64,000 nt of DNA from an uncultured delta proteobacterium (GTDB lineage Bacteria > Desulfobacterota > RBG-13-43-22): NCBI GenBank assembly GCA_963790475.1, contig CAWBOS010000006.1, positions 512,001 through 576,000 of the forward strand, given 5' to 3'. Positions within the stretch are counted from its first letter, which is position 1. Every line of letters begins with the position of its first letter. This document shows positions 8,121 through 61,274 of this stretch, one piece after another. Position numbers and translations under genes: made by a program. Under the pieces are notes generated by a model. The model worked only from the letters and a program-made list of their open reading frames with translations. It had not been told where the DNA came from and did no database searches.

Positions 8121-8218
8121 TGGCGGAAGTGCATGGGAATCGAACCCACCTGCCGCCCTCTTCAGACGGCACACCGGATTTGAAGTCCGGGAGCCCCACC
8201 AGTGAGCTTTCCACTTCC
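8121..8218 (-). tRNA. selC: tRNA-Sec (anticodon UCA)
   Basis: GGAAGTG...CCCGGA CTTCAAA TCCGGT, long variable arm, GTTCGATTC T-arm, GCCA end; 98 nt. Confidence 0.95.
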
Positions 8219-8445: not shown

Positions 8446-9417
8446 ATGAAACTGGGATCTCAAACCATAACTTTTCCCTATGTAATGGCCCCCATGGCCG
8501 GGTATACGGACCTGCCTTTCCGTTTACTGGTTCGGAAGTTAGGCTGCGAACTGGCCTATACCGAAATGGTCAGCGCTGAAGGATTGGTTCGACATATCCC
8601 CTTAACCTGGTCAATCCTCAAAACCGTTCCGGAGGACCACCCCTTATCGGTTCAGCTGTTCGGTTCCAACCCGGAAGTCATGGCTCAGGCCGCTGTTCTG
8701 GCCGGAGAGGCCGGGGCCGATATTATCGATATCAATATGGGCTGTTCGGTAAAGAAGGTCGCCAAATCCGGCTCGGGAGCGGCTTTACTGAAGGATTTGA
8801 AAAAAGCGGAACAGTTGATAAAAGCCGTCAGGAAGGCTACCCCTCTTCCCCTGACCATCAAGATACGTTCCGGCTGGAAGGAGGGGGAGTTCACCTACCG
8901 GACCATGGCCCAAATCGCTGAGGACTCCGGGGTGGACGCTCTGGTCATCCATCCCCGTTATGCGGTTCAGGGTTTTTCCGGTCAGGCGGACTGGCGGGTT
9001 GTGGCGGAAATCAAGGCGATGGTGCGGATTCCGGTCTTGGGCAGCGGAGATATCTCCACCCCGAAACAAGCCCTGGAACTCAAAAAGCAAACCCATTGCG
9101 ATGGCGTTATGATCGGCCGGAAAGCCTTAAGGGCCCCCTGGATCTTTAAACAGATCAAGGAAATGGAGGCCGGTGGCCCTCCCACCACTCCCGACCCCAC
9201 GGAAAGGCGGGGTTGGCTGGTTTCATATTGGCAATGGATTGAAGAAAATTATCAGGGACCGGCCCAAATCAAAGCCTTGCGCCGGACCTTATTCGTCCTG
9301 ACCCGGGGACTGCGGGCCTCGGGCGAGTTCAGACAAAACGTGGCCCTGGCTCCGACTAAGGAACGGTTAAGGGGCCTTTTTGAAGAATATTTTGATTCCC
9401 TGTCTTCATTGGAGTAA
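8446..9417 (+). CDS. dusB: tRNA-dihydrouridine synthase B
   Basis: MAPMAGYTD, IDINMGC, TIKIRSGW, HPR, DGVMIGR motifs. Confidence 0.92.
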   Translation: MKLGSQTITFPYVMAPMAGYTDLPFRLLVRKLGCELAYTEMVSAEGLVRHIPLTWSILKTVPEDHPLSVQLFGSNPEVMAQAAVLAGEAGADIIDINMGCSVKKVAKSGSGAALLKDLKKAEQLIKAVRKATPLPLTIKIRSGWKEGEFTYRTMAQIAEDSGVDALVIHPRYAVQGFSGQADWRVVAEIKAMVRIPVLGSGDISTPKQALELKKQTHCDGVMIGRKALRAPWIFKQIKEMEAGGPPTTPDPTERRGWLVSYWQWIEENYQGPAQIKALRRTLFVLTRGLRASGEFRQNVALAPTKERLRGLFEEYFDSLSSLE

Positions 9418-9584
9418 AATTAACGCATAGTAAAACTTTAGGTGTTTGATAAAAGTATCTTTCACCGCAAAGCTTGCTATATTTTAGAAAGTAGTTAAGC
9501 CGTACAAAAAAGGCTATACTCTTTCTTGATTTGAGGTCCAATTTGCAAGTTGGTTAAACCCAAACCAAGGAAAGGAGTATAGCC

Positions 9585-10844
9585 ATGAATAAGATTGAAA
9601 CAAAAAAACTTAAGAAGGTCAATGAAAAAACCCTTATCGGTACCGTGGACATAGGCAAAACGACCAATATGGGATATGGCCGCTGTCCAGACCGGACGGA
9701 AATCAAACCTTTTGAGTTTTTCAATAATGATCAAGGATTTACGAAATTTTGGAATCGGATGGTTGAGGCCAAAGAGGCCAATCACTTGGAAGAAATCGTG
9801 GTTGGTTTTGAATCCACCGGGTCTTATGGAGAACCCTTGCAACATTTTCTGATGAAACGGCCGGTGACACTGGTTCAGGTTAATCCTATGCATACGAAGA
9901 AGTTGAAGGAAGTCCAGGGTAACTCGCCCAATAAGACGGATAGGAAAGATCCCAAAGTCATTGCGGATATTATTGAGCTGGGTCATGCCCTTACCGTGGT
10001 CATTCCCGAAGGCGCGGCAGCTGAACTTCGCCGACTGACCCATGCCAGGGAGAGAGCCATACGAAGACGAACGGGCCTTTTGAACCAGATTCAGGATTTG
10101 GTCTTTATTGTCTTCCCCGAGTTTCTGCAAGTGATGAAGAATATTAAAACCCGCAGTGCCCAATATCTGTTGCGGCATTATCCGTGCCCGGAAGATATTA
10201 TCCAATGTGGTCTTGGGACCTTGAGGGCCACGCTGAGACGGGTTAGCCGAGGGAAGCTGGATAAAGAGCGAGCCCCGGCCCTTTATGCGGCCGCTGGCCA
10301 TTCCGTAGGTCTTCAAGAAGGCCGCAAGGCGATTCTTTTTGAGATACGAGAACTTCTTTCTGAGATTGAATCTTCTGACCAGTTTATTGAGAAGGCGGAA
10401 CAGGAGATGGCGGCCCTTCTTCCCGAGATCCCCTATAGTCATTCGATTCTGTCCTTGAAAGGGATAGGAGAGGTTACCACCGCCGGACTGATTGGAGAAG
10501 TCGGGGATTTTCGTAAATTTCATACGCTGGCTGAAGTCCTGAAGTTGGCCGGACTGAACCTCTTTGAAATCAGTTCTGGAAGGCACCAAGGGAATCGTCA
10601 TATATCCAAAAGAGGCCGGTCGCTTCTTAGGAAAATCCTCTTTTTTGCCGCTATCAATACGGTTCGAAAAGGGGGAGTGATGCATACGGCCTATCAAAGG
10701 CATCTGGATCAAGGAATGCCCAAGATCAAGGCCCTGGTAGCCATTGCCCGGAAGCTTCTCGGTGTTATTTTTGCCTTGGTGCGTGATCATAACGAATATA
10801 TGGAAAATTATTCAAAAGGAGCAACGTTAAAACTGGCTGCTTAG
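9585..10844 (+). CDS. IS110 family DEDD transposase/recombinase
   Basis: VDIGK, FESTG, KTDRKD (DEDD), LKGIGEVT, SSG (catalytic Ser), ISKRGRSLLR, ALVAIARKL. Confidence 0.95.
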   Translation: MNKIETKKLKKVNEKTLIGTVDIGKTTNMGYGRCPDRTEIKPFEFFNNDQGFTKFWNRMVEAKEANHLEEIVVGFESTGSYGEPLQHFLMKRPVTLVQVNPMHTKKLKEVQGNSPNKTDRKDPKVIADIIELGHALTVVIPEGAAAELRRLTHARERAIRRRTGLLNQIQDLVFIVFPEFLQVMKNIKTRSAQYLLRHYPCPEDIIQCGLGTLRATLRRVSRGKLDKERAPALYAAAGHSVGLQEGRKAILFEIRELLSEIESSDQFIEKAEQEMAALLPEIPYSHSILSLKGIGEVTTAGLIGEVGDFRKFHTLAEVLKLAGLNLFEISSGRHQGNRHISKRGRSLLRKILFFAAINTVRKGGVMHTAYQRHLDQGMPKIKALVAIARKLLGVIFALVRDHNEYMENYSKGATLKLAA

Positions 10845-10849
10845 ACCTT

Positions 10850-11015
10850 CTTAGCGTGTAAGCGGAGAGATTATCGTTTGCGGCATCTAAGGCGACTAAG
10901 TCGACCTTCTCGCAGAGCTTAAATAACTCTCCGCTTGCACCTTAACCCCAATAAAGCAAGGTTAGAGCTCTGTTGAGACTCTCAAATTACCAGAGTTGGG
11001 CAAGGTGTCACTCTA
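10850..11015 (+). ncRNA. Putative bridge/seek RNA in the IS110 right end
   Basis: Two hairpins with internal loops containing target-matching (TTTGCG, CGCAGAG) and donor-matching (AGCAAG, ACCAG) segments. Confidence 0.7.
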
Positions 11016-11070
11016 AGATAGTTACCAGTTTGTTTAATAATATTTAAAAAACTCTTGACAACAATAAACC

Positions 11071-11250
11071 AGACGCAAAGAACGCAGAGAGATTTTTTTG
11101 AACAATTCCAAGAGAGACGGGATTGTTCAAACCAGCTCTGGCCTCCAGCCAAACTGACCTCTGGAGGGTAGCGAAGGCTTTTCCCTTTCTGGCCTCTCAA
11201 CAGAAAGGGAAAATTATTTCTTCTTTGCGCCCTTTGCGACTTTGCGGTGA
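11071..11250 (+). repeat. Palindromic intergenic repeat (TTCACCGCAGAGACGC...GCGGTGA family) interrupted by IS110; 5' tip at 9461-9472
   Basis: Terminal inverted repeats; homologous to 59196-59379 and 46836-47027. Confidence 0.85.
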
Positions 11251-11292
11251 GAATATTAATTTTAAAATTTAAAAGGCAAACTGATACAAATT

Positions 11293-13020
11293 ATGAAAGT
11301 CCGTCTGGCAAAAAAGGCCGGGTTTTGTATGGGGGTCCGCCGGGCAATGGAACTGGCCCTGGAGGCCAGCTATCATTTTCCCGACCCCGTTTACACCTAT
11401 GGGCCCTTGATCCATAATCCGCAGGTTTTATCGATGCTGGAAAAAAAAGGCATCCGAATCCTGGACCCTGTTGAAGATCGGCAAACGGGCACGGTCATTA
11501 TCAGGGCCCACGGCATAGCTCCCCTGGATCACGAGCGGTTGAAAAAGAGCGCCTGTACCATCATTGACGCCACTTGTCCCAGGGTGATTAAGGTCCAGGC
11601 CATTATCCGGAAATACGCCCAGGAAGGATATACCACGATCATTGTCGGTGATCGGGATCATCCGGAAGTCATCGGGCTGCTGGGCTATTCTAAAGGCCAG
11701 GGGATTGTCCTGACCCATCTGGATCAGGTTAAAGACCTGCCGGATTTAGACCAGGTGATTGTGGTGGCCCAAACTACCCAGGACGAATCCCTCTTTCAGG
11801 CGGTGGTTGAAAAAATAAGAGATCGGTTTCCCAACAGCCTGGTTTTTAATACCATCTGTAATGCCACTCATCAACGGCAGGAAGAGGTGCGCAACCTGGC
11901 TCGGCAGGTGGACGGGTTGGTCATCGTGGGGGGCTACAACAGCGGGAATACCCGGCGTCTGGTGGCGATCGCCGAATCCGTGGGTACCCCTTGCTTTCAC
12001 GTGGAGTCGGATGACCAATTGGATAAGAAAGAAATCAGCCGGTTCAAGACCGTCGGGGTTACCGCCGGGGCCTCAACCCCCAACTGGATGATTCGAAAAG
12101 TGGTCCAGGAACTGGAGATAACCAAGGGACAGGGCGAATATGTCTGGAGTGCCTTTCTCTTTCGCTGGGTACGTTTCTCGTTAAAGAGTAATCTGATGGT
12201 CGCCCTGGGGGCCGGGTGTTTGACCCTGGCGGCCTCCCGGTTACGGCAGACCCCTTTAAACTGGATATACTTTGCCGTAACTTTTTTCCATATTTATGCT
12301 ATGCACATTCTGAATCATCTCCTCGATCGAGGGGCCGCGGAATATAACGATCCGGATCGTTCTCGATTCTATCAGACGTACCGATCGGCGTTCTTCATTT
12401 CAGGGGCCGGGGCCGCAGTATTTTCCTTGGCCCTGGCCTTGACCCTGGGTTGGGCACCGTTCTTTTTCCTGGCGGCCATGAGCGCCCTGGGTATCCTCTA
12501 TAGTTTTCAGATCGTGCCGGCAGTTTGGCAGCGCTTTACAAGGATGAAAAAAATCAAAGACATCCCCGCCTCCAAAACGCTTTCCGTGGCCCTGGGTTGG
12601 GGCGGCGTAACCACCCTGATCCCGGCCATGGCCGAACATCAGCCGCTGAGTCTTTCCCTGGTTATTATCTTTTTTATCATTTGTTCTTTTGTTTATATCC
12701 GTTCCGGTCTTTTTGATGTCTTGGATATCCAGGGGGATTTGATCGTCGGCAAGGAGACCCTCCCGATCATTATCGGAGAAGAAAAAACCATCCGTTTCCT
12801 GAAAAGGTTAAGCCTGGGGACGATGCTCGGCTTATCGGCAAGCGCCCTGGGGGGTCTTCTGCCCCATTGGAGCCTATGGCTTTTGATCTGTCTTTTGTAT
12901 CAATTTGGTTTTTTAATCATTTATGAAAAGAACCGGGCTTTGCCCGGGAATGTCTTTTTCGAAGCGATGGTGGAAGCCGGGTTTATCCTGGCCGGATTGG
13001 CAGCCCTCTTAATACCTTAG
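11293..13020 (+). CDS. ispH: 4-hydroxy-3-methylbut-2-enyl diphosphate reductase fused to a C-terminal UbiA-family prenyltransferase domain
   Basis: AGFCMGV, DATCPRV, TICNAT, GVTAGASTP; C-terminal multi-TM with NHLLDR and DVLDIQGD...TLP motifs. Confidence 0.9.
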   Translation: MKVRLAKKAGFCMGVRRAMELALEASYHFPDPVYTYGPLIHNPQVLSMLEKKGIRILDPVEDRQTGTVIIRAHGIAPLDHERLKKSACTIIDATCPRVIKVQAIIRKYAQEGYTTIIVGDRDHPEVIGLLGYSKGQGIVLTHLDQVKDLPDLDQVIVVAQTTQDESLFQAVVEKIRDRFPNSLVFNTICNATHQRQEEVRNLARQVDGLVIVGGYNSGNTRRLVAIAESVGTPCFHVESDDQLDKKEISRFKTVGVTAGASTPNWMIRKVVQELEITKGQGEYVWSAFLFRWVRFSLKSNLMVALGAGCLTLAASRLRQTPLNWIYFAVTFFHIYAMHILNHLLDRGAAEYNDPDRSRFYQTYRSAFFISGAGAAVFSLALALTLGWAPFFFLAAMSALGILYSFQIVPAVWQRFTRMKKIKDIPASKTLSVALGWGGVTTLIPAMAEHQPLSLSLVIIFFIICSFVYIRSGLFDVLDIQGDLIVGKETLPIIIGEEKTIRFLKRLSLGTMLGLSASALGGLLPHWSLWLLICLLYQFGFLIIYEKNRALPGNVFFEAMVEAGFILAGLAALLIP

Positions 13021-32193: not shown

Positions 32194-33509
32194 GGGTCAG
32201 GTCTATACTGTTGCACTTTTATCTGAGCATTTAAAAATCGAAGGAGATATTATTGATGCTTGAATGCGCTTAAGGGAACATCATCAAGGGGTAAAAAGTT
32301 AATATCTTCATTCGTGGCGACGGCCTGATCACCTCTGAATCCTTTTTAGAAACAGCCACTGTCCCTAAGTTTATAAGTATAAATTATTATATCGCGAGCC
32401 AAATCATACCCATCGCAACAAGGAGTCCTAATGGTACCAAAAGTCGGTCTGGCCCTGGGCGGCGGCGCGGCCAGGGGCCTTGCCCATCTCGGCGTACTTA
32501 AAGTTTTGGAAGACGCCAAGATTCCTATCCATATCATAACCGGCACCAGCCTCGGGGCTATGGTCGGAGGACTCTATGCTTCCCGACCGGATGCCGCCTA
32601 TTGGATGGGGCGGGTCGAAGAATTCCTCTTCAGCTTCCAGTCGCGAAAGACCCGTCTGGAGTTCATCCGCAAACTGGAGGAGGTTGATGATAATTGTGGA
32701 TTTTTTACCGATATGGCCAACCTGGTTCGCAAGAGTTTTTTCTGGGGTGTTACCGCCACCAAATCGGCCTTCATCTCCGAAAAAGAATATGAAGAATTCC
32801 TTAATCCTCTGATCCCCGATATCGCTATCGAGGAGACCCAAATACCCTTCGGTTGCGTGGCTACGGACATCCGGAAGGCCGCCCGCGTTCTCTATACCCA
32901 AGGCTCACTCCGACGGGCGATCAGTGCCAGTTGTGCGCTGCCCGGGATATTCCCTCCGGTAAAAGACGGGGATCTGTTGCTGGTGGATGGTGGATGGGTG
33001 GAGTGTTTGCCCGCCCGCAGCGCAAGGGAAAGGGGGCCCAAGTCATCATAGGCGTAGACCTGTCGAGCGAGACCCAGAGGTTTGCCGGGGGATCCGGACT
33101 GGATATTATCCTGCGTTCGGATGCCGTCACCCGGATTTATCTGAACGACCTTTTGCTCGCCGATGCGGATGTGCTTATTCTCCCCAACGTGGACGGATGT
33201 CAGTGGGCCGATTTCAGCGGTCCCCGGGAGCTCTTCCGAGCGGGAGAGAAGGCTGCCCTCGAAAGTCTTCCCGCCATTCATAAGGCCGTGCATAAAAGGG
33301 CTCTTTCCCGAAAGGCCCTGGCAGAACGGTTCAAGACGATCAGGGATAAATGTATAGAAACCTTTGCAGCAGGGAAGTAGGCGGATTTTATAAATTCGGC
33401 TGGAGTAGGAGGGGTCAGGTCTATACTGTTGCACTTTTATCTATGGATTTCAAAATCGAAGGAGATATTATTGATGCTTGATTGCCGTTTAAAAGAACAT
33501 CACCAAGGG
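32194..33509 (+). repeat. ~97-bp direct repeats (32194-32290, 33412-33509) flanking the patatin gene
   Basis: Shared GGGTCAGGTCTATACTGTTGCACTTTTATCT...AAAATCGAAGGAGATATTATTGATGCTTGA. Confidence 0.85.
32431..33380 (+). CDS. Patatin-like phospholipase (RssA-type), frameshift at G-run 33032-33036
   Basis: GGGAARG, GTSLG, DGG motifs; C-terminus continues in another frame (GAQVIIGVD...). Confidence 0.88.
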
Positions 33510-37537: not shown

Positions 37538-37666
37538 AAACACTACCTCCTTGACCTTGAACAAAAATGAACCCATTTCAAAGGTCTCAAATGATTTGCT
37601 GAATTACTGGATTTATTTCCAAGAACCTCTCGTTCCGTTTAATTTTTTAAAATAATCCAATCCCCT

Positions 37667-37808
37667 GCGACCTTTGAAAAACGCCCCCTTTTGCCCAATC
37701 TTTGCGTCAGACTCAAATTTTAATCCTCGAAATACAAAATGTATTCCTTTGGTTAAAATTTTCGTCTTCCTTGACCTTGGACAAAATTGAACATTTTTCA
37801 AAGGTCTC
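37667..37808 (-). repeat. MITE (GAGACCTTTGAAAAA...TTTTTCAAAGGTCTC family); partial copy at 37546-37588
   Basis: Terminal IR; inverted homolog of 54228-54369. Confidence 0.85.
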
Positions 37809-46835: not shown

Positions 46836-47027
46836 TTCACCACAGAGACACCGAGGACACAGAGAAGTTCTCTTTTTCTTCGGCGGGAGAAACCGCCAAA
46901 GAAAAACCAACCTGTCGCTTCGCGAACAAGACACCGGGTGCCGCAGACAGACTGGTTTTCAAGAATCGGCATTCCCCGATTTTTGAAAAAACAAGAGTCT
47001 CTGTGCTCTCTGTGTCTCTGTGGTGAA
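46836..47027. repeat. Uninterrupted member of the IS110 target repeat family
   Basis: TTCACCACAGAGACACCGAGGACACAGAGA...TCTCTGTGCTCTCTGTGTCTCTGTGGTGAA. Confidence 0.8.
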
Positions 47028-54227: not shown

Positions 54228-54369
54228 GAGACCTTTGAAAAATGTCCGATTTTGGTCAAGGTCAAGGAAGCCGAAAATTTCAACCGCAGGGATATATGAA
54301 ATATTTCGAGGATTGAAATTAGAGCCTGACGCAGAGATTGGGCAAAAGGGGGCATTTTTCAAAGGTCTC
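54228..54369 (+). repeat. MITE with 5-bp TSD ACATA
   Basis: IR GAGACCTTTGAAAAATG / CATTTTTCAAAGGTCTC; ACATA at 54223-54227 and 54370-54374. Confidence 0.88.
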
Positions 54370-54382
54370 ACATAGGAAGTGT

Positions 54383-59195: not shown

Positions 59196-59379
59196 TTCAC
59201 CGCTGAGACGCCGAGGGCGCAGAGATGAAATATTTTTTTCCTTTCTGTTGAGAGGCCAGAAAGGAAAAAACTTTCGCTACCCTACGGGTAATGATTTGGC
59301 CGAAGGCCAGAGCTGGTTTAAACAATCCCGCTTCTCACGGGATTGAACAAAAATGATTCTCTCTGCGTCCTTTGCGTCT
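59196..59379 (-). repeat. Palindromic target repeat interrupted by IS110 copy 2; tip at 60978-60989
   Basis: Homologous to 11071-11250. Confidence 0.85.
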
Positions 59380-60977
59380 GGTTTATTGTTGTCAAGAGTT
59401 TTTTAAATATTATTAAACAAACTGGTAACTATCTTAGAGTGACACCTTGCCCAACTCTGGTAATTTGAGAGTCTCAACAGAGCTCTAACCTTGCTTTATT
59501 GGGGTTAAGGTGCAAGCGGAGAGTTATTTAAGCTCTGCGAGAAGGTCGACTTAGTCGCCTTAGATGCCGCAAACGATAATCTCTCCGCTTACACGCTAAG
59601 AAGGTCTAAGCAGCCAGTTTTAACGTTGCTCCTTTTGAATAATTTTCCATATATTCGTTATGATCACGCACCAAGGCAAAAATAACACCGAGAAGCTTCC
59701 GGGCAATGGCTACCAGGGCCTTGATCTTGGGCATTCCTTGATCCAGATGCCTTTGATAGGCCGTATGCATCACTCCCCCTTTTCGAACCGTATTGATAGC
59801 GGCAAAAAAGAGGATTTTCCTAAGAAGCGACCGGCCTCTTTTGGATATATGACGATTCCCTTGGTGCCTTCCAGAACTGATTTCAAAGAGGTTCAGTCCG
59901 GCCAACTTCAGGACTTCAGCCAGCGTATGAAATTTACGAAAATCCCCGACTTCTCCAATCAGTCCGGCGGTGGTAACCTCTCCTATCCCTTTCAAGGACA
60001 GAATCGAATGACTATAGGGGATCTCGGGAAGAAGGGCCGCCATCTCCTGTTCCGCCTTCTCAATAAACTGGTCAGAAGATTCAATCTCAGAAAGAAGTTC
60101 TCGTATCTCAAAAAGAATCGCCTTGCGGCCTTCTTGAAGACCTACGGAATGGCCAGCGGCCGCATAAAGGGCCGGGGCTCGCTCTTTATCCAGCTTCCCT
60201 CGGCTAACCCGTCTCAGCGTGGCCCTCAAGGTCCCAAGACCACATTGGATAATATCTTCCGGGCACGGATAATGCCGCAACAGATATTGGGCACTGCGGG
60301 TTTTAATATTCTTCATCACTTGCAGAAACTCGGGGAAGACAATAAAGACCAAATCCTGAATCTGGTTCAAAAGGCCCGTTCGTCTTCGTATGGCTCTCTC
60401 CCTGGCATGGGTCAGTCGGCGAAGTTCAGCTGCCGCGCCTTCGGGAATGACCACGGTAAGGGCATGACCCAGCTCAATAATATCCGCAATGACTTTGGGA
60501 TCTTTCCTATCCGTCTTATTGGGCGAGTTACCCTGGACTTCCTTCAACTTCTTCGTATGCATAGGATTAACCTGAACCAGTGTCACCGGCCGTTTCATCA
60601 GAAAATGTTGCAAGGGTTCTCCATAAGACCCGGTGGATTCAAAACCAACCACGATTTCTTCCAAGTGATTGGCCTCTTTGGCCTCAACCATCCGATTCCA
60701 AAATTTCGTAAATCCTTGATCATTATTGAAAAACTCAAAAGGTTTGATTTCCGTCCGGTCTGGACAGCGGCCATATCCCATATTGGTCGTTTTGCCTATG
60801 TCCACGGTACCGATAAGGGTTTTTTCATTGACCTTCTTAAGTTTTTTTGTTTCAATCTTATTCATGGCTATACTCCTTTCCTTGGTTTGGGTTTAACCAA
60901 CTTGCAAATTGGACCTCAAATCAAGAAAGAGTATAGCCTTTTTTGTACGGCTTAACTACTTTCTAAAATATAGCAAG
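59380..60977 (-). mobile_element. IS110-family element copy 2 (inverted)
   Basis: Same length (1598 bp) and identical protein; CT at 59378-59379 and 60978-60979. Confidence 0.93.
59606..60865 (-). CDS. IS110 family transposase
   Basis: Identical translation to 9585-10844. Confidence 0.95.
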   Translation of the reverse strand: MNKIETKKLKKVNEKTLIGTVDIGKTTNMGYGRCPDRTEIKPFEFFNNDQGFTKFWNRMVEAKEANHLEEIVVGFESTGSYGEPLQHFLMKRPVTLVQVNPMHTKKLKEVQGNSPNKTDRKDPKVIADIIELGHALTVVIPEGAAAELRRLTHARERAIRRRTGLLNQIQDLVFIVFPEFLQVMKNIKTRSAQYLLRHYPCPEDIIQCGLGTLRATLRRVSRGKLDKERAPALYAAAGHSVGLQEGRKAILFEIRELLSEIESSDQFIEKAEQEMAALLPEIPYSHSILSLKGIGEVTTAGLIGEVGDFRKFHTLAEVLKLAGLNLFEISSGRHQGNRHISKRGRSLLRKILFFAAINTVRKGGVMHTAYQRHLDQGMPKIKALVAIARKLLGVIFALVRDHNEYMENYSKGATLKLAA

Positions 60978-61274
60978 CTCTGCGGTGAATAAAATTTTGT
61001 TCCGGCTTGTCCGGGTTAGGGACTGCAAAGATCGTTTCAAAAACGCGTCGGTGTTTTGCCTTCATACCAAGCTCATAGCACTTTAACCTGGTTCGTGCAA
61101 GCAATATTTGATAGCGTAAAGTCCAAACAACCCGATAACGCTATGGAAAAATTATTACTTCAAATACACTAACTTCATGCCTACCAGTGAGAGATGCACA
61201 GCGGTCGTTTTCTTTTTCTCCTTGATCCGTCATTTCCCCTGTTTTATACTCTCTCCAATATCAAAGGAGAGCTT

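What the first reader, a model, noticed from the sequence alone, without database searches (positions are those of the whole stretch)
9461..11250. Both IS110 copies hit the same base of a genomic palindromic repeat; a mismatched third repeat is empty
Seen: removing the element gives TTCACCGCA(A/G)-AG-ACGCAAAG(A/G)ACGCAGAGAG at both sites, the 5' arm of a ~190-bp repeat with terminal IRs. The two host repeats have diverged from each other, while the IS copies encode identical proteins, so the insertions are independent, recent and site-specific. A third family member (46836-47027) reads CACAGAG-ACACCG, mismatching both putative guides, and is unoccupied. Inference: the element uses an abundant intergenic repeat as a safe-harbour target, analogous to IS621 in REP sequences.
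Basis: partly seen in the sequence, partly recalled or inferred. Interest (0 to 1): 0.75.

Follow-up and report, generated by a model that had tools for sequence, protein, structure and literature searches.

The report
RNA-guided IS110 element targeting a repeat
A young jumping gene of the well-known RNA-guided IS110 family sits at exactly the same base of a 15-letter site in all ten of its genome copies, nine of them inside a short intergenic repeat, which is a clean but expected example of how these elements choose their landing sites.

Summary
The 1600-bp element (window 9473-11072; second copy 59378-60977, minus strand) occurs 10 times in the 6.34-Mb genome. Nine copies are 100% identical and one is 99.94%. 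All 10 lie between C-R-C-R-R-A-G and A-C-G-C-A-R-A-G. Nine are in one arm of a ~185-bp repeat with terminal inverted repeats (51 full-length loci). One splits an ATPase-like ORF that carries the same 15-mer.

The 3' non-coding region folds into a two-loop bridge/seek RNA. Its loop sequences covary with the flanks across 21 related IS types.

Occupancy tracks the guide match. Among sites that pair fully with both guides, 9 of 15 with A at +1 are occupied, against 0 of 50 with C, G or T (Fisher p = 1.6e-7).

The nucleotide that tracks +1 sits in the donor loop, in the place of IS621's "handshake" nucleotide. The target guide is itself mismatched at +1.

Verdict: a new member of a known kind (IS621, ISPpu9/10 and ISPa11 in REP sequences).

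The parts
9461..9472 (+). Outer 12 nt of the host repeat's arm, left of IS copy 1. This is the left target half. The core AG is at 9471-9472.
9473..11072 (+). IS copy 1, 1600 nt, counted with one copy of the AG core (11071-11072). It has no terminal or sub-terminal inverted repeats.
9478..9483 (+). TATATT, the -10 half of a promoter that exists only when the element's ends are joined. TTGACA at 11055-11060 is the other half, and the spacer across the junction is 17 nt.
   Evidence: Read. Both hexamers and the ends are conserved in the relatives. No comparable promoter was found in the linear form.
9585..10844 (+). Transposase gene, 419 aa: IS110-family DEDD domain plus Transposase_20 domain.
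10861..10935 (+). First stem-loop of the 3' non-coding RNA, the target-binding loop. [quoted passage not shown] The 3' side (10910-10917) has the same sense as the left half plus core. It is followed by CUU (10918-10920), which equals the first 3 nt of the IS left end.
10937..11008 (+). Second stem-loop, the donor-binding loop. AGCAAG (10955-10960) is complementary to the IS left end. ACCAG (10989-10993) has the same sense as the IS right end plus core. A at 10994 equals target base +1.
11055..11060 (+). TTGACA, the -35 half of the circle-junction promoter.
   Evidence: conserved in relatives
11073..11250 (+). Remainder of the host repeat. The right target half ACGCAAAG is at 11073-11080, followed by internal hairpins and the opposite terminal arm, which ends at 11250.
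59378..60977 (-). IS copy 2, identical to copy 1.
60978..60989 (-). Left target stub of copy 2. It has G where copy 1 has A at -3.
59197..59377 (-). Remainder of the host repeat of copy 2. It is 78% identical to that of copy 1.
46836..47027 (+). Third, empty member of a diverged subfamily of the repeat (CACAGAG-type arms). Both arms have mismatches to the right-side guide.

Best explanation
This is an active IS110-family insertion sequence. It has a 419-aa DEDD/Ser transposase and no inverted repeats. Its long non-coding region lies downstream of the transposase gene and encodes a two-loop bridge (seek) RNA.

How the site is chosen:
- The 3' side of the first loop has the same sense as the 7-8 nt left of the insertion point, core AG included. 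It therefore pairs with the bottom strand.
- The 5' side of the first loop is complementary to the top strand right of the insertion point (+2..+7).
- The second loop recognises the joined ends of the excised circle in the same way.
- Recombination at the shared AG core places the element between C-R-C-R-R-A-G and A-C-G-C-A-R-A-G.
- The R positions are those where G.U or G.T wobble keeps the pairing.

That 15-mer occurs almost only in one kind of arm of a ~185-bp intergenic repeat, so the repeat acts as a de facto safe harbour.

What is shown:
- The anatomy of the element.
- Ten of ten identical junctions.
- Occupancy that tracks the match.
- Covariation of guides with flanks in relatives.

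What is inferred (about 0.5):
- The strict need for A at +1 is set by the handshake nucleotides, not by the target guide.
- The donor-loop nucleotide just after ACCAG (A at 10994) must match +1.
- The target-loop nucleotide just after the core (C at 10918, which matches the donor's +1) must not match its own target.
- This follows the rule shown for IS621 position 7.

The confidence figure refers to the core claim of RNA-guided site-specific insertion.
For: Family:
- PF01548 (E 2.5e-24) and PF02371 (E 5.7e-20).
- NF033542, 'IS110 family RNA-guided transposase', 216 bits against a cut-off of 140.
- Distant match to the IS621 transposase structure 8wt6 (E 4.2e-8).

Copies: 10 in the genome, 9 at 100% and 1 at 99.94% identity.

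Junctions: all 10 are ...CRCRRAG | IS | ACGCARAG....

Occupancy in a genome with the IS copies removed in the script:
- 16-mer scan: the exact 16-mer has 6 sites, 4 occupied. CCGCAAAG followed by C, G or T then CGCAAAG has 18 + 10 + 5 = 33 sites, 0 occupied.
- Guide-pairing model with wobble allowed: 0 mismatches to both guides with +1 = A gives 15 sites, 9 occupied. The same with +1 = C, G or T gives 25 + 17 + 8 = 50 sites, 0 occupied.
- One left-guide mismatch with +1 = A gives 33 sites, 1 occupied. One right-guide mismatch with +1 = A gives 40 sites, 0 occupied.
- Fisher p = 1.6e-7 for 9/15 against 0/50.

RNA:
- The 228-nt 3' region folds at -67.9 kcal/mol, z = -5.2, and 0 of 200 shuffles fold as well.
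- An alignment of 23 relatives gives two stem-loops with large internal loops. 23 of 39 pairs show compensatory changes.

Guide-flank covariation over 21 IS types:
- Left guide against its own left flank pairs at 4.76 of 5 positions, against 2.45 for other types. 0 of 10000 permutations reach this.
- Right guide against its own right flank pairs at 6.55 of 7, against 4.62 for other types (11 types). 0 of 10000 permutations reach this.
- The nucleotide after ACCAG equals target +1 in 10 of 11 types. 4 of 10000 permutations reach this.
- By eye, 8 of 9 further types also agree.

Same-genus genomes:
- G003 holds 4 copies of an IS that is 82-83% identical in DNA but has different loop sequences. 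These copies sit at GAAAAAG|GATTCAAG-type sites that match those loops.
- G012 has contig-end IS fragments flanked by the same target as here.

Sequence rather than repeat: the one copy outside the repeat sits at the same 15-mer inside an ORF.

IS621 precedent, read in passages of PMC11208158: position 7 of the target covaries with a donor-loop handshake nucleotide, and pairing of a handshake nucleotide with its own (cognate) DNA blocks strand exchange.
Against: - No experiment or RNA read shows that the RNA is made or bound. The only RNA-library contig laid on the region is 90-95% alike and comes from a metagenome.
- Six of the 15 fully eligible sites are empty. The largest contig, C10 (2.0 Mb, 3 eligible sites), has no copy.
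- One occupied site (CGCGGAG) has a non-wobble mismatch to the left guide.
- In this element the right-guide nucleotide opposite +1 is G, which would pair with C. All 10 insertions have A there, and all 25 sites with C are empty. Simple guide pairing does not explain +1.
- In IS621, loss of the handshake pair alone still allowed recombination. The total absence of insertions at +1 = G or T (0 of 25) is therefore stricter than that precedent predicts.
- The handshake rule fails in 1 of 11 types (L016) and is ambiguous in L041.
- The IS types compared are related to each other, so the permutation tests overstate independence.
- The genome is rated 9.68% contaminated. The identity of repeat copies can also be inflated by assembly polishing.
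Confidence: 0.85

Rival explanations
1. The mechanism is the same RNA-guided one, but A at +1 is not read by handshake nucleotides. It is read instead by a protein contact next to the cleavage site, or by a non-Watson-Crick G.A pair with the right guide. This is a rival to the +1 sub-claim only and is compatible with the core claim.
For: - The guide nucleotide opposite +1 is G in this element, and all 10 sites have A.
- In IS621, loss of the handshake pair alone did not abolish recombination (passages of PMC11208158).
- Among 20 related types, +1 is G, A or T but never C. This could also reflect a protein preference.
Against: - In most relatives the guide nucleotide opposite +1 forms an ordinary pair (C-G, U-A or A-T). 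A fixed protein preference for A is therefore excluded.
- The nucleotide after ACCAG changes with +1 (A, G, T) in 10 of 11 types.
Confidence: 0.3
2. The transposase, or a host factor, recognises the folded repeat (its hairpins or terminal arm) rather than a guide-complementary sequence. The RNA matches would then be incidental, or only one half of a 'structure plus sequence' gate as proposed for ISPpu10.
For: - Nine of 10 copies are in the repeat, which has strong internal hairpins.
- The ISPpu10 preprint (10.64898/2026.03.19.712850, abstract read) reports a required target-DNA stem-loop.
Against: - One copy lies in an ORF with no repeat around it but with the same 15-mer.
- Twenty-five arms differ from occupied ones essentially only by C at +1, in the same repeat context, and all are empty.
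- The loops covary with the flanks across relatives whose targets are not this repeat.
Confidence: 0.07
3. The element spread among repeat copies by homologous recombination or gene conversion between repeats. It carried its immediate flanks, including A at +1, with it, rather than inserting de novo.
For: The flanks next to the IS are more alike among occupied sites than the repeat as a whole.
Against: - Only 12 nt of repeat lie left of the IS, too short for homology-driven exchange. Beyond them the flanks are unique.
- The flanks vary within 3-6 nt of the junction at -6, -4, -3 and +6.
- One copy is outside any repeat.
- The tolerated variants are almost all transitions that keep wobble pairing with the loops.
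Confidence: 0.03

Closest known systems
IS621 (E. coli, IS110 group; bridge RNA; inserts into REP sequences)
   Same: - DEDD plus Ser transposase family.
- A two-loop RNA in which each loop reads both strands of a half-site around a 2-nt core.
- A repeat sequence used as the natural target.
- A nucleotide next to the core that covaries with a nucleotide of the other loop (the handshake).
- Read on the opposite strand, the core here is CT, as in IS621, and the order 'long guide 5', short guide plus core plus handshake 3'' is the same. This last point is my inference.
   Different: - The RNA gene lies downstream of the transposase gene, not upstream. Relative to the gene, the top-strand match therefore comes first.
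- The transposase has 419 aa against 328 for the 8wt6 chain. The match is weak (E 4.2e-8) and its best-scoring stretch lies in the C-terminal domain.
- The host repeat is a ~185-bp unit with 30-nt terminal inverted repeats, not a ~35-nt REP.
IS1111-group elements with seekRNA (ISEc11, ISPa11, ISKpn4; Siddiquee et al. 2024, PMC11187229)
   Same: - Non-coding region and guide RNA downstream of the transposase gene.
- Top-strand match 5' of the bottom-strand match (section 9 read).
- Circle-junction promoter.
- ISPa11 is named there as having a consistent target (section 13). That its target is REP is my recollection.
   Different: - No sub-terminal inverted repeats: the longest inverted match between the first and last 60 nt is 5 nt, and 298 of 300 shuffles do as well.
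- The transposase has 419 aa, against 330-350 aa stated for IS1111 transposases (section 6).
- It therefore fits the minority of IS110-type elements with a 3' non-coding region that the paper mentions.
ISPpu9 / ISPpu10 of Pseudomonas putida KT2440
   Same: IS110-family elements present in several copies, all inside one class of intergenic repeat. For ISPpu9 I saw the abstract start in the search listing. For ISPpu10 I read the preprint abstract.
   Different: - ISPpu10 is reported to need a target DNA stem-loop in addition to the RNA match. Here one of 10 insertions lies outside the repeat.
- Different host phylum and different repeat.
[quoted passage not shown]
   Same: Insertion at one fixed position of a terminal inverted repeat of another repeated element. 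I know this only from the title in reference lists.
   Different: The target here is a non-autonomous repeat. No larger element bounded by the same arms was found: two inward-facing arm pairs lie 264 and 731 bp apart, and none lies further apart up to 5 kb.

Membership tests
IS110 family (RNA-guided DEDD transposases) | N-terminal DEDD (RuvC-like) transposase domain | tested here: met
   PF01548, residues 21-178, covering 3-155 of 155 profile positions, E 2.5e-24.
IS110 family (RNA-guided DEDD transposases) | C-terminal Transposase_20 domain carrying the catalytic Ser in an S-G motif | tested here: met
   PF02371, residues 287-371, E 5.7e-20. The alignment to IS621 chain 8wt6_A covers the S-G stretch. 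The catalytic role itself was not tested.
IS110 family (RNA-guided DEDD transposases) | Curated whole-protein model | tested here: met
   NF033542 'IS110 family RNA-guided transposase', 216.2 bits, cut-off 140.
IS110 family (RNA-guided DEDD transposases) | No terminal inverted repeats; a short core shared by the target and the element ends instead of a target duplication | tested here: met
   AG stands at the end of the left flank and at the end of the element in 10 of 10 copies. No inverted match longer than 5 nt exists between the ends.
IS110 family (RNA-guided DEDD transposases) | Bridge/seek RNA with two internal loops complementary to the target and the donor | tested here: met
   Fold z = -5.2. 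Consensus structure with 23 of 39 covarying pairs. Loop-flank covariation with 0 of 10000 permutations reaching the observed value. Expression and binding were not tested. No Rfam family matched.
IS110 family (RNA-guided DEDD transposases) | Promoter assembled across the circle junction | tested here: inconclusive
   TTGACA, a 17-nt spacer and TATATT form only when the ends are joined. This is conserved in relatives. No circle-junction read was found.
IS1111 group | Sub-terminal inverted repeats of 7-17 bp | tested here: not met
   Longest inverted match between the first and last 60 nt is 5 nt, and 298 of 300 shuffles do as well.
IS1111 group | Long non-coding region and guide RNA downstream of the transposase gene; top-strand match first | tested here: met
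   112 nt lie upstream against 228 nt downstream.
IS1111 group | Transposase of 330-350 aa related over its full length to that of IS1111 | tested here: not met
   The transposase has 419 aa. The length range is taken from PMC11187229 section 6. No direct comparison with the IS1111 protein was made.
REP/BIME-type or MITE-like intergenic repeat (the target) | Many dispersed copies, intergenic, palindromic or with terminal inverted repeats, and no coding capacity | tested here: met
   51 full-length loci of ~175-190 bp and 139 loosely defined arms. The three window copies lie between ORFs. No autonomous parent was found.
REP/BIME-type or MITE-like intergenic repeat (the target) | Association with a RAYT (REP-associated tyrosine transposase), or target-site duplications of a parent transposon | not tested
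   No search for a RAYT or for duplications was made.

The most novel reading that the evidence does not exclude
In this clade, with the bridge RNA 3' of the gene, the base next to the core is chosen against the target guide. All 11 natural junctions (10 here, 1 in a sister species) have A at +1, opposite a guide G. All 25 sites that offer the perfect G-C pair are empty. The deciding nucleotides would be the two handshake positions: the donor-loop nucleotide must match target +1, and the target-loop nucleotide must not. If so, natural genomes show that handshake pairing is an absolute gate in these elements rather than a modulator as reported for IS621. That would be a usable design rule for this little-studied group of recombinases.
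Probability: 0.4. Interest if true: 0.5.

Novelty: new member of a known kind. Interest (0 to 1): 0.35.

Why it matters
This is a tidy natural data set for RNA-guided recombinases. One genome holds 15 fully matching sites and 50 that differ only at one base, and the occupancy contrast is all-or-none. A sister species carries an 82-83%-identical element that has been retargeted by its loop sequences alone. Together these give a ready-made specificity series for a clade (419-aa transposase, 3' bridge RNA, no sub-terminal repeats) that I did not see characterised in the papers I read. For genome annotation, it explains the ten insertions and predicts the six sites where new copies can land. It does not change what is known about the family.

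Tried and rejected
Rfam: an E-value-threshold search of 9300-11400 found no bridge-RNA family. The only hit was a chance match to PhotoRC-I, 18.8 bits against a gathering score of 45.

Public runs: 20 runs share words with the region. Laying X1, X2, X3 and X20 (all contigs) gave no joint across the IS, no empty-site contig and no circle junction. The run contigs break near the IS ends or run on into the flank of another copy, so they say nothing about mobility. One contig from an RNA library covers 10867-11090 at 90-95% likeness and continues into a repeat arm. It belongs to a relative and shows no transcription here.

Parent transposon for the repeat: I looked for inward-facing arms 260-5000 bp apart. 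Only two pairs were found, 264 and 731 bp apart, so no parent was found.

Coding test for the repeat: checking for stop-free frames was uninformative for so short a unit. 23 of 51 loci have an open frame by chance.

Promoters in the linear element: nothing exceeded the shuffles, 3 found against 2.4 expected.

Sub-terminal inverted repeats: none.

Other IS110-like genes in the genome are only 23-39% identical in protein and were of no use for covariation.

Idea that the A at +1 belongs to the IS: rejected. Empty arms have the same unit length with any base at that place. Empty A-arms exist. The base changes with the loop sequence in relatives.

A match of LE 9545-9555 to the circle junction (11 nt) was noted but not pursued. 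It lies in a local palindrome just upstream of the start codon.

Supplementary files of the papers were not opened. The ISfinder-wide trees and target tables in the supplements of PMC11187229 and PMC11208160 may already include this clade.
Full report
WHAT IS THERE

The window is C6:512001-576000 of a 6.34-Mb genome in 20 contigs.

At 9473-11072 lies a 1600-nt element with one long ORF (9585-10844, 419 aa). The ORF carries the two domains of IS110-family transposases: PF01548 (E 2.5e-24) and PF02371 (E 5.7e-20). It also passes NCBI's curated model for 'IS110 family RNA-guided transposase' (216 bits, cut-off 140). It matches the solved IS621 transposase only distantly (8wt6, E 4.2e-8).

A second copy lies inverted at 59378-60977 (pair I1).

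The stretches next to both copies are the parts of a ~185-190-bp repeat with ~30-nt terminal inverted arms made of three 8-10-nt units. A third, more distant member lies at 46836-47027 and is empty.

All three repeats lie between ORFs. Copy 1 sits between a Dus-family gene and a LytB-UbiA fusion gene.

THE OBSERVATION, GENOME-WIDE

blastn finds 10 copies of the element. Nine are 100% identical and one is 99.94% identical over 1599 nt. The protein is identical in nine copies and 99.76% identical in the tenth.

In all 10 copies the left flank ends in C-R-C-R-R-A-G, the element starts with CTTGC and ends in AAACCAG, and the right flank starts with A-C-G-C-A-R-A-G. AG is the only sequence shared by the end of the left flank and the end of the element, so it is the core.

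Nine copies are in the repeat. The tenth (C6:14565-16164) is in unrelated sequence with the same 15-mer. There it splits an ORF whose upstream piece has weak ATPase_2/AAA hits, below Pfam's cut-offs.

The 175 nt of host repeat beside the nine copies are 47-80% identical to each other (median 71%; the two window copies 78%). The insertions are therefore independent and much younger than the repeats. One caveat applies: identity among repeat copies can be inflated by assembly polishing, and the genome is rated 9.68% contaminated.

THE REPEAT

A profile built from eight of the nine repeat-borne right flanks finds 128 hits on both strands (the rearranged C11:36230 copy and the non-repeat site were left out). 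These collapse to 51 full-length loci. A loose pattern finds 139 arms. No pair of inward-facing arms encloses anything larger than 731 bp, so no autonomous parent was found.

DOES OCCUPANCY TRACK THE MATCH?

I removed the ten copies inside a script and scanned both strands.

16-mer scan:
- The exact 16-mer has 6 sites, 4 of them occupied.
- The 33 sites that differ only by C, G or T at +1 (18, 10 and 5 sites) are all empty.
- Their context is otherwise the same as that of occupied arms.

Pairing model built from the RNA loops, with wobble allowed:

| Left-guide mismatches | Right-guide mismatches | +1 base | Sites | Occupied |
|---|---|---|---|---|
| 0 | 0 | A | 15 | 9 |
| 0 | 0 | C, G or T | 25 + 17 + 8 = 50 | 0 |
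| 1 | 0 | A | 33 | 1 |
| 0 | 1 | A | 40 | 0 |

Fisher's test for 9/15 against 0/50 gives p = 1.6e-7.

The variants tolerated at occupied sites (-6 G/A, -3 A/G, +6 A/G) are exactly those that keep G.T or U.G wobble pairs. The one exception is G at -4 in a single copy.

Results against saturation or a simple rule:
- Six eligible sites are empty, two of them perfect.
- The 2.0-Mb contig C10 has three eligible sites and no copy.

THE RNA

The 228 nt after the stop codon fold far better than shuffles (z = -5.2). No Rfam family matches.

The search for related loci returned 43 loci, most of them encoding transposases 52-67% identical (four weaker or partial matches reach down to 26%). They come from MAGs labelled Deltaproteobacteria/Thermodesulfobacteriota, Nitrospirota and others. 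Five multi-copy sets fix the element boundaries.

All relatives share the ends: AG|CTTGCTAT... and ...TTGAC(A/T)-n-AAACCAG|. These ends form a TTGACA, 17-nt spacer, TATATT promoter only when joined. No such promoter is seen in the linear element.

An alignment of the RNA region from 23 elements gives two stem-loops, each with a large internal loop. 23 of 39 pairs show compensatory changes.

First loop:
- The 3' side carries a copy of the 7-8 nt left of the insertion point, including AG. It is followed by CUU, the first bases of the element.
- The 5' side is the complement of the right flank.

Second loop:
- AGCAAG is the complement of the element's left end.
- ACCAG is a copy of its right end plus core.

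Over 21 types, each left guide pairs with its own left flank at 4.76 of 5 variable positions, against 2.45 for other types' flanks. 0 of 10000 permutations reach this. Over the 11 types with a known right flank, the right guide pairs at 6.55 of 7 positions against 4.62. Again 0 of 10000 permutations reach this. The types are related to each other, so these tests overstate independence.

The order (top-strand match first) is the one reported for IS1111-type seekRNAs (PMC11187229, section 9). It is the reverse of IS621 (PMC11208160, passages).

My inference is that, read on the opposite strand, the core is CT and the layout equals that of IS621.

A NATURAL RETARGETING

A same-genus genome (G003) has four copies of an element 82-83% identical in DNA. 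Its loops read differently, and its copies lie at GAAAAAG|GATTCAAG-type sites that match those loops.

Another same-genus genome (G012) has one left-end and one right-end fragment of the present element at contig ends. They are flanked by CACCGCAGAG| and |ACGCAGAG, the same target with A at +1.

THE +1 PUZZLE

In this element the right-guide nucleotide opposite +1 is G. It would pair with C. Yet the 25 sites with C are empty and all insertions have A.

In the relatives, the nucleotide that follows ACCAG in the second loop equals target +1 in 10 of 11 types (A, G or T). 4 of 10000 permutations reach this. By eye it also agrees in 8 of 9 further types, all of them G. The exceptions are L016 and the ambiguous L041. 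No type has C at +1 (0 of 20), and C is the donor's own +1.

This is the mirror image of the handshake guides of IS621. Passages of PMC11208158 state three things:
- Position 7 of the target covaries with a donor-loop nucleotide.
- Pairing of handshake nucleotides with the non-cognate DNA promotes strand exchange.
- Pairing with the cognate DNA blocks strand exchange.

Here A10994 would pair with +1 = A sites after exchange. C10918 would pair with its own target at +1 = C sites and block them.

The emptiness of G and T sites (0 of 25) is stricter than the IS621 data predict, because there loss of the handshake alone was tolerated. This step is inference, at about even odds. A protein contact or a G.A pair is the alternative.

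COMPARISON AND VERDICT

The element works like IS621, ISPpu9/10 and the seekRNA elements. It is a member of the IS110 family by every sequence criterion tested.

It is not a typical IS1111-group member. It has no sub-terminal inverted repeats, and its 419 aa compare with the 330-350 aa stated for that group. It shares with that group the 3' position of the RNA. This corresponds to the minority of IS110-type elements with a downstream non-coding region mentioned in PMC11187229 (section 6).

Use of intergenic repeats as targets by this family is long known. Titles of Choi 2003 and of Tobes and Pareja 2006 were seen in reference lists. The ISPpu9 abstract start was seen in listings, and the ISPpu10 preprint abstract was read.

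Its value is as a clean natural specificity series, and as a hint that the handshake position acts as a gate.

Noticed in passing
window 8121-8218 (minus) and 1887-1956: A tRNA-SeC gene. A 70-nt, 99% identical copy of its 3' part lies 6230 bp away (family D3). This is the usual signature of an element integrated into a tRNA gene, with the stretch between as the candidate island.
   Followed up: no
window 11293-13020 (+): A 575-aa ORF that fuses a complete LytB/IspH domain (E 1.9e-93) to a UbiA prenyltransferase membrane domain (E 8.3e-13). It lies directly downstream of the occupied repeat.
   Followed up: no
window 37548-37808 and 54228-54370: A different repeat family: a 143-nt inverted pair, 86% complementary, plus 41-nt direct copies.
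   Followed up: no
window 9512-9524 and 9572-9584: A 13-nt inverted repeat (92%) in the element's left end. Its second arm covers the AAGGAG ribosome-binding site up to the start codon (I16). It could hold translation down in the linear form.
   Followed up: no
L030-L033, L036, L039, L011, L022, L027, L029 (flanks of the IS): Relatives of this IS in MAGs labelled Nitrospirota, delta proteobacteria and others also sit in arms made of tandem 8-10-nt units of the type CACC-R-CGAAG / A-R-CACGAAG. This style of repeat arm, and its use by this IS clade, seems widespread.
   Followed up: partly
L045, L052-L054 (G003) and L024, L025: The retargeted IS of the sister species and two elements from MAGs labelled Desulfobacterales and Bacteroidia share the same right target, GATTCAAGGGTTC, itself a tandem motif.
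   Followed up: no
window 32194-32267 and 33412-33485: A 74-nt direct repeat (93%), 1218 bp apart, ending in a ribosome-binding-site-like GGAG and ATG (family D2). It probably marks tandem paralogous genes with a shared leader.
   Followed up: no
L016/L018 versus L017: Copies of one IS type in one MAG differ by two extra G between the element end and the conserved right target: GGTCTGTGAG against TCTGTGAG. This suggests some slack in the register of the right guide.
   Followed up: no
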